Shown piece after piece: positions 6,024-6,830 of a stretch of 64,000 bases of DNA; position 1 is the stretch's first letter, and the number at the start of each line of letters is the position of its first letter. This stretch comes from Escherichia coli (GTDB lineage Bacteria; Pseudomonadota; Gammaproteobacteria; Enterobacterales; Enterobacteriaceae). The position numbers and the translations under genes are program-made. The DNA is taken from NCBI RefSeq assembly GCF_003334335.1, contig NZ_QOWQ01000001.1; one strand, written 5' to 3'. The notes under the pieces were generated by a model that did no database searches, was not told the DNA's origin, and saw nothing but the letters and a program-made list of their open reading frames with translations.

Positions 6024-6572
6024 TTACCACTCCCAGACTTTCGACGGTGTAACCACCGCAGGAAGAGGGATATCCCACTCTTCAACGGGGAGTTTTTCCA
6101 CCAACTGACAATCATGCGCATAACCCACCGGTTGCGTTTTATAGTGCTGCCAGTTTTGTAAGGTCCGATCATAAAAACCACCGCCCATTCCCAGGCGCTG
6201 ACCGTACTCATCAAAGGCGACCAGCGGTGTGATCAGCACGTCTAATCGGGAAAGGGGTAGCACGTCACGCACATCCAATTTTGGCTCATGGATCTTCAAC
6301 CTGTTCATCACCAGTTCGCTTTGCGGATGGTAATTCAGGAACAGCAAATTACCGGCACTAAAGGGATGCAAAACTGGAAGATATACGCGCTTACCGGCGC
6401 GCCAGAGTTGTTCTATGAGTGGCTGGGTGTCGAGTTCGCCATCAAAAGAGAGGAATACAGCGACCGTATGTGCCATCACCACCGGGGGATAAGTCATCAT
6501 CCGGGTAGCGGCTTGTTGACCCATTTCCTGCTGTTGTTCCGGCGTTAACGCACGACGACGTTGCCGAATCAT
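6024..6572 (-). CDS. fau: 5-formyltetrahydrofolate cyclo-ligase
   Basis: ORF track 6024..6770 (-); the upstream part of that ORF overlaps ssrS, so start set at internal Met (MIRQRRRALTPEQQQ..., 182 aa); an alternative start at 6626 (MTQLPELPL...) is possible. Confidence 0.75.
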   Translation of the reverse strand: MIRQRRRALTPEQQQEMGQQAATRMMTYPPVVMAHTVAVFLSFDGELDTQPLIEQLWRAGKRVYLPVLHPFSAGNLLFLNYHPQSELVMNRLKIHEPKLDVRDVLPLSRLDVLITPLVAFDEYGQRLGMGGGFYDRTLQNWQHYKTQPVGYAHDCQLVEKLPVEEWDIPLPAVVTPSKVWEW

Positions 6573-6644
6573 TTTGCGGATTTCTTGTCGGGATAATGTC
6601 AGTGGGAGTTCTGGTAGTTGCGTCATGGCTGGTGCCAGATAAGA

Positions 6645-6830
6645 AGGGAATCTCCGAGATGCCGCCGCAGGCTGTAACCCTTGAACCCTTGGTTCAAGGT
6701 GAATGTGTCGTCGCAGTTTTAAGGCTTCTCGGACGGACCGAGCATGCTCACCAACCGCGGAGCGCCACATTCTTGTGGTATGAAATATCGGCTCAGGGGA
6801 CTGGCCCGCTTGCGAACATCTCAGAGAAAT
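6645..6830 (-). ncRNA. ssrS: 6S RNA
   Basis: Reverse complement reads ATTTCTCTGAGATGTTCGCAAGCGGGCCAGTCCCCTGAGCCGATATTTCATACCACAAGAATGTGGCGCTCCGCGG...GGAGATTCCCT, recognised as 6S RNA; sits directly upstream of fau on the same strand; ends within a few nt. Confidence 0.9.

What the first reader, a model, noticed from the sequence alone, without database searches (positions are those of the whole stretch)
6024..6830. 6S RNA encoded immediately upstream of, and partly inside, the long fau reading frame
The ORF track reports a 248-aa reverse-strand ORF (6024..6770) whose first roughly 50 codons overlap the 6S RNA gene. The real arrangement is an ssrS-fau dicistronic unit with fau starting at an internal Met. 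This is a good example of an ncRNA masked by an over-extended ORF call, and the true fau start (6572 versus 6626) cannot be decided from sequence alone.
Basis: partly seen in the sequence, partly recalled or inferred. Interest (0 to 1): 0.3.

Follow-up and report, generated by a model that had tools for sequence, protein, structure and literature searches.

The report
E. coli 6S RNA–fau operon
This is the well-known E. coli operon in which the 6S regulatory RNA gene sits directly in front of the folate-repair enzyme gene fau; the long ORF running into the RNA gene is an accident, and comparison with other species shows that fau starts at 6626, not 6572.

Summary
A 248-aa reverse-strand ORF (6024..6770) overlaps a full-length 6S RNA gene (6647..6830, Rfam 139.8 bits, identical to K-12 ssrS). 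The overlap is 41 codons, not about 50. This is the textbook E. coli zapA–ssrS–fau(ygfA)–sibC/ibsC–serA region, and the ssrS–fau dual-function transcription unit is already in the literature.

It was wrong that the start codon cannot be decided from sequence. Five results point to ATG 6626, giving a 200-aa protein:
- In 62 Enterobacteriaceae species an ATG lies 14–25 nt after the 6S 3' end in 60 (about 100–125 nt in two), and the protein begins MT in 61.
- The Met at 6572 is present in only 14 of the 62.
- Codons 2–18 vary mostly at third positions, as coding sequence does.
- Pfam, TIGR02727 and solved homologues all begin 6 residues upstream of Met19, in an SRQxIR motif.
- Published tetracycline ribosome profiling put the ygfA start at −54, which is 6626.

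PGAP annotates 6626, but the MG1655 reference record still carries 6572. The frame into 6S is open only in Escherichia. No candidate start has a Shine-Dalgarno sequence. This is ordinary and already known, with a small annotation-correction value.

The parts
6846..6875 (-). Promoter-like site upstream of ssrS: ATGACA, 18-nt spacer, TG-TAGAGT (extended -10). It is positioned for a transcript starting about 9 nt before the mature 6S 5' end, which fits the known proximal ssrS promoter P1.
   Evidence: Consensus scan. This is a pattern match only. Two sites were found in the region against 1.7 expected by chance. Calling it P1 rests on recalled literature.
6647..6830 (-). ssrS, the 6S RNA gene (184 nt)
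   Evidence: Rfam RF00013 at 139.8 bits over the full model. 100% identical to K-12 ssrS. Annotated as ncRNA ssrS in RefSeq. 15 of 47 consensus pairs show compensatory changes across Enterobacteriaceae and Pasteurellaceae.
6627..6646 (-). 20-nt pyrimidine-rich spacer between the 6S 3' end and the fau start codon, with no Shine-Dalgarno sequence
   Evidence: Read from the sequence. Across species the spacers are 74% pyrimidine and 9% G. Anti-SD duplex energy is -1.5 kcal/mol here and averages -0.25 over 62 species, against -7.8 for zapA. Spacer length is 14-25 nt in 60 of 62 species and is not held to multiples of 3.
6024..6626 (-). fau (ygfA), 5-formyltetrahydrofolate cyclo-ligase, 200 aa, from the best-supported start ATG 6626 to the stop TAA at 6024-6026
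   Evidence: NF007661 447 bits (cut-off 343), profile positions 2-198 of 198. TIGR02727 profile positions 1-182 of 182. Pfam PF01812 model positions 1-186 of 186. PGAP annotation WP_000192748.1, 603 nt. TetRP start at -54. Comparative evidence.
6576..6593 (-). Codons 12-17 (S-R-Q-E-I-R), the conserved beginning of the cyclo-ligase domain. A start at 6572 would remove it.
   Evidence: The motif [STAL]R[QK]x[IL]R is present in all 62 species. It aligns with the N-terminal K/R...R of solved homologues 1ydm, 1sou and 3hxt. Nucleotide diversity in codons 12-18 is 0.192 / 0.040 / 0.489 at codon positions 1 / 2 / 3.
6570..6572 (-). Internal ATG (Met19), the start used in the MG1655 reference annotation for the 182-aa form
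   Evidence: NC_000913.3 fau is 549 nt. Met at this position occurs in only 14 of 62 species; the rest have L, I, V, T, F, H, Q or Y.
6627..6770 (-). Spurious 48-codon extension of the fau frame through the spacer and into the 6S gene
   Evidence: The frame is open to -201 only in Escherichia. In other genera it closes 46-71 nt inside 6S, or within the spacer in Salmonella arizonae. The extension matches no protein family. ATG 6770 sits in a conserved base-paired helix of 6S and is absent in Pasteurellaceae.
6560..6659 (-). C-rich, G-poor stretch (C/G ratio 2.2-2.4, the highest in the transcription unit). It spans the 6S 3' end, the spacer and the first ~20 fau codons and resembles a Rho-loading (rut) site.
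   Evidence: Composition scan. This fits the Rho-dependent termination within ygfA cited in PMC3299989. Calling it a rut site is an inference.

Best explanation
This is the canonical E. coli ssrS-fau (ygfA) dual-function transcription unit. One or more promoters upstream of ssrS drive a transcript that carries the 184-nt 6S RNA (6830..6647) and then, after a 20-nt pyrimidine-rich spacer with no Shine-Dalgarno sequence, the fau reading frame. 6S RNA is cut and trimmed out of this precursor and acts as a decoy for sigma-70 RNA polymerase. That function is established knowledge and was not tested here. Most transcripts are reported to end by Rho-dependent termination in the first part of fau, where the RNA is C-rich and G-poor. 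Read-through transcripts serve as fau mRNA. Fau is translated from ATG 6626 to give a 200-aa 5-formyltetrahydrofolate cyclo-ligase. ATG 6572 is an ordinary internal methionine that happens to be present in Escherichia and a few relatives. The 248-aa ORF from 6770 is a chance stop-free frame through the 6S gene and is not translated. Shown here: the identity and boundaries of 6S and fau, the conserved adjacency, the start-codon conservation and the coding signature upstream of Met19. Taken from papers: co-transcription, Rho termination and the ribosome-profiling start. Inferred: that the C-rich stretch is the rut site, and that initiation without a Shine-Dalgarno sequence is weak.
For: - 6S: Rfam full-length match at 139.8 bits, 100% identical to K-12 ssrS, with 15 of 47 pairs compensatory.
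- Locus: present once in all 5426 complete E. coli genomes and annotated zapA / ssrS / fau.
- Start at 6626, comparative: an in-frame ATG lies 14-25 nt after the 6S 3' end in 60 of 62 Enterobacteriaceae species and about 100-125 nt in two. The protein starts MT in 61 of 62. Met19 is present in only 14 of 62.
- Start at 6626, coding signature: diversity in codons 2-18 is 0.249 / 0.166 / 0.477 at codon positions 1 / 2 / 3. Length changes between the ATG and the motif are whole codons, whereas spacer lengths vary freely.
- Start at 6626, family boundaries: Pfam PF01812 positions 1-186 begin at residue 13 of the 200-aa form. TIGR02727 covers positions 1-182 for the long form but only 8-182 for the 182-aa form. 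NF007661 loses positions 1-16 with the short form. Solved homologues align from residues 12-14.
- Start at 6626, experiment and annotation: tetracycline ribosome profiling lists ygfA with a new ATG start at -54, class '1. new site'. Read depth was 150.5 / 4.68 / 0.62 at the new site against 0 / 1.75 / 0.33 at the older one (PMC4909307). PGAP annotates the 603-nt CDS.
- Operon: no terminator-like hairpin lies between ssrS and fau, and there is a promoter-like site just upstream of ssrS. Papers state co-transcription and Rho-dependent termination within ygfA. The C/G ratio peaks at 6659-6560. The 6S-fau adjacency is also kept in four Pasteurellaceae, with the ATG 12-16 nt after 6S.
Against: - The curated MG1655 reference record still annotates the 549-nt, 182-aa form starting at 6572.
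- The ribosome-profiling support is shallow. It is strong in one of three samples and only about 2-3 fold in the other two. No N-terminal peptide was found for either form.
- Neither ATG has a Shine-Dalgarno sequence, so that criterion is silent.
- I could not read the primary paper on Rho termination, so its details rest on citing papers and on my memory.
- A minor second initiation at 6572 in Escherichia is not excluded.
Confidence: 0.92

Rival explanations
1. fau starts at ATG 6572 (182 aa), as in the MG1655 reference annotation, and the 74 nt between the 6S 3' end and 6572 are an untranslated leader.
For: The NC_000913.3 annotation has a 549-nt CDS, NP_417387.3. There was a small TetRP signal at the older start in two of three samples, 1.75 and 0.33. 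The sequence just upstream (GCAAAATG) is A-rich.
Against: Met19 is absent in 48 of 62 species, which then have no canonical start there. The 54 nt upstream of 6572 evolve as coding sequence. The short form loses positions 1-7 of TIGR02727 and 1-16 of NF007661, including the invariant R-Q-x-I-R motif. The TetRP signal is mainly at -54. PGAP uses 6626.
Confidence: 0.04
2. Escherichia uses both starts: a main 200-aa enzyme from 6626 and a minor 182-aa proteoform from 6572 that lacks the first part of the domain.
For: Both ATGs are present in all Escherichia loci examined. Low TetRP counts occur at both sites in samples 2 and 3. In-frame internal starts near the 5' end are known in other E. coli genes (bioRxiv 10.1101/520783).
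Against: The authors classed ygfA as 'new site' rather than 'multiple'. Met19 is not conserved, so no conserved function can depend on it. There is no Shine-Dalgarno sequence before 6572. The counts at the older start are near background.
Confidence: 0.1
3. The 248-aa ORF is real: translation starts at ATG 6770 inside the 6S sequence, giving a Fau protein with a 48-residue N-terminal extension.
For: The only support is that the frame is open from 6770 in Escherichia.
Against: The frame is closed by stop codons in every non-Escherichia genus, and spacer lengths that are not multiples of 3 shift the phase. The extension matches no protein family. ATG 6770 is base-paired in a conserved 6S helix and is missing in Pasteurellaceae. 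There is no Shine-Dalgarno sequence, +0.3 kcal/mol. 6S varies at 2.8% per site with compensatory changes, which is an RNA constraint and not a codon constraint.
Confidence: 0.01

Closest known systems
E. coli K-12 ssrS-ygfA (fau) dual-function transcription unit. Described by Hsu et al. 1985, Kim & Lee 2004 and Chae et al. 2011 (citations from memory); cited in PMC2848244 and PMC3299989.
   Same: It is the same locus. 6S is 100% identical, the 911-nt query is 100% identical to K-12 strains, the neighbours are the same (zapA, sibC/ibsC, serA, ygfB, pepP), and so are the strand arrangement and the 20-nt spacing.
   Different: Nothing differs in sequence. The only difference is which fau start the annotation uses: 6572 in MG1655 and 6626 in PGAP records.
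6S RNA family (Rfam RF00013)
   Same: Full-length covariance-model match. It has the closing stem, central bubble and internal stem, with compensatory changes.
   Different: None. This is the founding member of the family.
5-formyltetrahydrofolate cyclo-ligase / MTHFS family (PF01812, TIGR02727, NF007661; solved structures 2jcb, 1ydm, 1sou, 3hxt)
   Same: End-to-end match to all three models, and E-values of 5.6e-23 to 2e-16 to the four solved enzymes named here. The N-terminal basic motif aligns with K/R...R of the bacterial and human enzymes.
   Different: The enterobacterial proteins carry a short variable tail of 9-11 residues (MTQLPELPLTL) before the domain. That tail is outside the Pfam and TIGR profiles, so those two family models alone do not fix the exact start.
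Over-extended ORF calls across structured non-coding RNA genes (a general annotation artefact)
   Same: A stop-free frame runs through a conserved RNA gene, and a naive longest-ORF rule swallows it.
   Different: Here the artefact is limited to Escherichia, and current pipelines (PGAP) already handle it correctly.

Membership tests
6S RNA (RF00013) | Covariance-model score above the curated gathering threshold over the whole model | tested here: met
   139.8 bits against 46.4, model positions 1-187 of 187, E = 2.2e-28.
6S RNA (RF00013) | Conserved rod-like secondary structure (closing stem, central bubble, internal stem) supported by covariation | tested here: met
   RNAalifold on 10 sequences from Enterobacteriaceae and Pasteurellaceae gave 47 pairs, 15 with compensatory changes. 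The single-sequence fold has a z-score of -3.25.
6S RNA (RF00013) | Binds sigma-70 RNA polymerase holoenzyme and templates product RNA (pRNA) synthesis | not testable with these tools
   Inferred from 100% identity to K-12 ssrS, for which this is experimentally established (abstracts).
5-formyltetrahydrofolate cyclo-ligase (NF007661 / TIGR02727 / PF01812) | Whole-protein score above the curated equivalog cut-off with end-to-end profile coverage | tested here: met
   NF007661 447.1 bits (cut-off 343), positions 2-198 of 198. TIGR02727 180.6 bits (cut-off 84.9), positions 1-182 of 182. PF01812 positions 1-186 of 186. End-to-end coverage holds only for the 200-aa form.
5-formyltetrahydrofolate cyclo-ligase (NF007661 / TIGR02727 / PF01812) | N-terminal basic K/R-x-x-x-R motif. 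I recall it as contacting ATP phosphates in solved MTHFS structures; that is a lead from memory, not a test. | tested here: met
   R13 and R17 align with K2/R6 of 1ydm, K3/R7 of 1sou and K10/R14 of human 3hxt. The motif is present in all 62 species. Its role in catalysis was not tested.
5-formyltetrahydrofolate cyclo-ligase (NF007661 / TIGR02727 / PF01812) | ATP-dependent conversion of 5-formyl-THF to 5,10-methenyl-THF | not testable with these tools
   Inferred from family membership only.
ssrS-fau dual-function transcription unit | 6S gene immediately upstream of fau on the same strand, conserved across species | tested here: met
   62 Enterobacteriaceae species have 6S ending 14-25 nt before the fau ATG, or about 100-125 nt in two. 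Four Pasteurellaceae have 12-16 nt. No 6S was found upstream in the single Colwellia locus.
ssrS-fau dual-function transcription unit | No intrinsic terminator between the two genes, and a promoter upstream of ssrS | tested here: met
   The scan found no terminator-like hairpin in 6560-6650 and a promoter-like extended -10 site at 6875..6846. These are pattern matches only.
ssrS-fau dual-function transcription unit | Co-transcription of 6S and fau, with Rho-dependent termination inside fau | not testable with these tools
   Stated in PMC2848244 and PMC3299989. The primary paper was not available. The C/G ratio peak at 6659-6560 fits a rut site.

The most novel reading that the evidence does not exclude
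In every Enterobacteriaceae and Pasteurellaceae genome examined, the fau start codon has no Shine-Dalgarno sequence, and in all but two it sits only 12-25 nt from the 6S 3' end behind a pyrimidine-rich, G-poor leader. This conserved tight abutment might be a coupling device rather than mere compactness. An initiating ribosome at this AUG would cover RNA almost up to the 6S 3' end. Ribosome loading, Rho loading on the same C-rich stretch and exonucleolytic 3' trimming of 6S could therefore be mutually exclusive. Each transcript would then become either a 6S precursor or a fau mRNA, which would tie folate repair to 6S output. A side possibility is that Met19 gives Escherichia a second, catalytically impaired Fau proteoform.
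Probability: 0.15. Interest if true: 0.4.

Novelty: already known. Interest (0 to 1): 0.1.

Why it matters
It matters little for biology, because the operon, the RNA and the enzyme are textbook E. coli features. There are three practical points.
- The MG1655 reference record still carries an 18-residue N-terminal truncation of Fau. I recall the UniProt entry (P0AC28) as 182 aa too, but did not check it. The truncation removes the conserved start of the catalytic domain. Anyone cloning the 182-aa form for enzyme, persister or folate studies may be working with a crippled protein.
- The locus is a clean teaching example of a longest-ORF call swallowing a non-coding RNA.
- It also shows how cross-species comparison resolves a start codon that single-sequence criteria cannot.

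Tried and rejected
- **Shine-Dalgarno strength.** I tried it as a way to choose between starts. It is uninformative: all candidate starts in all 62 species lack a Shine-Dalgarno sequence.
- **Primary Rho-termination paper (PMC3012964).** Not held in the library. I relied on citing papers.
- **Other start-site datasets.** The Ribo-RET preprint has no supplements held and no mention of fau or ygfA. The supplements of TRAINSPOTTER N-terminomics and of PMC5576327 have no entry for fau, ygfA or b2912.
- **Roles of the N-terminal Lys/Arg in MTHFS.** Two literature searches found nothing usable. That point stays a recalled lead, supported only by alignment to solved structures.
- **ssrS + fau + Rho.** A whole-word search found no papers.
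- **Translation of the 248-aa ORF.** Considered and rejected.
- **The ~100-nt insert between 6S and fau in Klebsiella-like loci.** I checked whether it is a hairpin or mobile repeat and found no inverted repeats.
- **Intrinsic terminators.** The only terminator-like hairpin in the scan (6197..6182) lies inside the fau coding region, and the count is at chance level (1 found against 1.7 expected). I did not treat it as functional.

Full report
**What is in the sequence**

On the minus strand the window carries, in order:
- zapA at 7201..6872.
- A full-length 6S RNA gene at 6830..6647.
- A 20-nt spacer.
- A reading frame ending at 6024.
- The sibC/ibsC toxin-antitoxin locus, then serA on the other strand.

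The 6S match is far beyond chance: RF00013 at 139.8 bits against a gathering score of 46.4, E = 2.2e-28, covering the whole model. The 184 nt are identical to K-12 ssrS. A 911-nt query spanning the region is found exactly once in each of 5426 complete E. coli genomes, always annotated zapA / ssrS / fau. So the window is E. coli and this is the classical ssrS-fau (ygfA) locus. One detail needs correcting. The ORF and the RNA gene share 124 nt (6647..6770), which is 41 codons plus 1 nt, not about 50. Forty-eight codons lie upstream of the 6626 ATG.

**The long ORF is an accident**

I fetched the orthologous locus from one genome per species and located 6S and fau in each.
- The fau frame stays open back into 6S only in Escherichia, where it is open to -201 relative to the 6S 3' end.
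- In Citrobacter, Enterobacter, Klebsiella, Kosakonia, Kluyvera and the others it is closed by a stop 46-71 nt inside 6S. In Salmonella arizonae it is closed within the spacer.
- The spacer between 6S and the fau ATG is 14, 17, 18, 19, 20, 21, 22, 23 or 24 nt in different species, so the phase between the RNA gene and the frame is not kept.
- The 48-residue extension matches no protein family.
- Its ATG (6770) lies in a base-paired helix of 6S and is absent in Pasteurellaceae 6S.
- 6S varies at only 2.8% per site, and 15 of its 47 pairs show compensatory changes. That is an RNA-structure constraint and not a codon constraint.

**The start codon can be decided**

The two candidates match two annotation traditions. 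The MG1655 reference record has a 549-nt CDS, which corresponds to 6572 and 182 aa. PGAP-annotated E. coli genomes have a 603-nt CDS, which corresponds to 6626 and 200 aa. Four independent lines favour 6626.

1. *Start-codon conservation.* In 62 Enterobacteriaceae species there is always an in-frame ATG shortly after the 6S 3' end, and the protein begins MT in 61 of them. The residue aligned with E. coli Met19 is Met in only 14. Elsewhere it is L (28), I (7), V (5), or T, F, H, Q, Y. In most of those species no canonical in-frame start other than the upstream ATG lies anywhere near.
2. *Coding signature upstream of Met19.* Nucleotide diversity in codons 2-18 is 0.249 / 0.166 / 0.477 at codon positions 1 / 2 / 3. 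In codons 12-18 it is 0.192 / 0.040 / 0.489, like the rest of the gene. The only length change in this stretch is a whole two-codon difference.
3. *Family boundaries.* Pfam PF01812 positions 1-186 start at residue 13 of the 200-aa form. TIGR02727 covers positions 1-182 with the long form but only 8-182 with the 182-aa form. NF007661 loses its first 16 positions with the short form. Solved homologues align from residues 12-14. R13 and R17 match K2/R6 of B. subtilis YqgN, K3/R7 of the 1sou enzyme and K10/R14 of human MTHFS. The motif [STAL]R[QK]x[IL]R is present in all 62 species. I recall that these basic residues contact ATP phosphates in MTHFS structures, but I could not confirm that from the papers available.
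4. *Experiment.* Nakahigashi et al. 2016 used tetracycline-inhibited ribosome profiling (PMC4909307). They list ygfA with a new ATG start at -54 from the older annotation, which is exactly 6626, and the 200-aa sequence. They class it '1. new site'. Read depth was 150.5 / 4.68 / 0.62 at the new site against 0 / 1.75 / 0.33 at the older one. The depth is low in two samples and no N-terminal peptide was recovered, so this supports the call without settling it alone.

Shine-Dalgarno strength does not help. No candidate start in any of the 62 species has one. The mean anti-SD duplex energy is -0.25 kcal/mol, against -7.8 for zapA and -5.4 for serA.

**How the locus works**

- *Checked here.* A promoter-like extended -10 site lies at 6875..6846, placed for a transcript starting about 9 nt before mature 6S. 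No terminator-like hairpin separates ssrS from fau. The 6S rod folds independently of the downstream leader. The stretch 6659..6560 has the highest C/G ratio of the unit, 2.2-2.4. The spacers of all species are 74% pyrimidine and 9% G.
- *From papers.* 6S is co-transcribed with ygfA, and this arrangement is conserved in enterobacteria and other gamma-proteobacteria (PMC2848244). [quoted passage not shown] A mutation of the ygfA translation start did not change 6S accumulation from a plasmid (PMC3299989).
- *Inferred.* The C-rich leader and first codons are the Rho-loading region. Weak initiation without a Shine-Dalgarno sequence leaves them exposed. Only read-through transcripts express Fau.
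- *Wider conservation.* The adjacency extends to Pasteurellaceae, where the ATG sits 12-16 nt after 6S.

**Comparison with what is known, and verdict**

Everything here is the known E. coli locus, identical in sequence to K-12. 6S meets the tests I could run (model score, structure, covariation). Fau meets the equivalog cut-offs end to end, but only as the 200-aa form. The finding is therefore already known.

It is wrong that the start is undecidable. The residual value is an annotation point: the MG1655 reference record still truncates Fau by 18 residues and removes the conserved beginning of the domain. The most novel reading I cannot exclude is that the conserved tight abutment of the SD-less start codon to the 6S 3' end couples 6S maturation, Rho loading and fau translation. 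I give that a low probability, partly because the plasmid result argues against strong coupling.

Noticed in passing
window 5848..5998 (- strand, SibC) and 5864..5923 (+ strand, ibsC): A type I toxin-antitoxin pair lies immediately downstream of fau. The SibC antisense RNA matches Rfam RF00113 at 133.8 bits, and the opposite strand encodes the 19-aa IbsC toxin MMRLVIILIVLLLISFSAY. The Rfam model begins at a TTGACA that looks like the sibC -35 box, only 25 nt from the fau stop codon. SIB RNA is also present after fau in the two Klebsiella loci.
   Followed up: partly
window 6002..6023 (- strand): A 7-bp GC-rich stem-loop (GGGCGAT-acacccgc-ATCGCCC) starts right after the fau stop codon. It has no T-run, and the terminator scan did not call it. 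It may mark the 3' end of the fau mRNA.
   Followed up: no
L032:1399-1500, L049:55-153, L036:1376-1500: In Klebsiella spallanzanii, an uncultured Klebsiella and Enterobacter sp. 10-1, the spacer between 6S and fau is about 100-125 nt instead of about 20. The three inserts share a conserved TGTATTA(A/C)ACT block, have no inverted repeats and gave no Rfam match in this stretch. The block could be a separate fau promoter in these lineages.
   Followed up: partly
L058 and L066 (fau CDS): The fau frame is shortened to 188 aa in Kluyvera genomosp. 3 and to 126 aa in Enterobacter sp. EA-1, although 6S upstream is intact. These may be pseudogenes or assembly errors.
   Followed up: no
L062 (Colwellia demingiae): No 6S RNA reached the Rfam gathering score within 1.5 kb upstream of the fau homologue, unlike in Enterobacteriaceae and Pasteurellaceae. 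The linkage may be broken there, or the 6S may be too divergent to detect.
   Followed up: no
window 20341..20418 (- strand): Rfam match to naRNA4 (RF02564, 75 bits), a REP/BIME-type repeat element.
   Followed up: no
window 63756..63829 (+ strand): A tRNA-Gly gene with anticodon CCC. From the K-12 map, as I recall it, this is probably glyU.
   Followed up: partly
window 6596..6922 (+ strand): A 108-aa ORF lies antisense to the whole 6S gene. It is almost certainly another chance frame across the structured RNA gene.
   Followed up: no
window 7363..7947 (+ strand, ygfB): The ORF list gives ygfB as 194 aa starting at 7363, while RefSeq annotates 579 nt, 192 aa. The ATG I assume to be the annotated start (7369) has no Shine-Dalgarno sequence, +0.1 kcal/mol. 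This is another start-codon ambiguity in the same neighbourhood.
   Followed up: no
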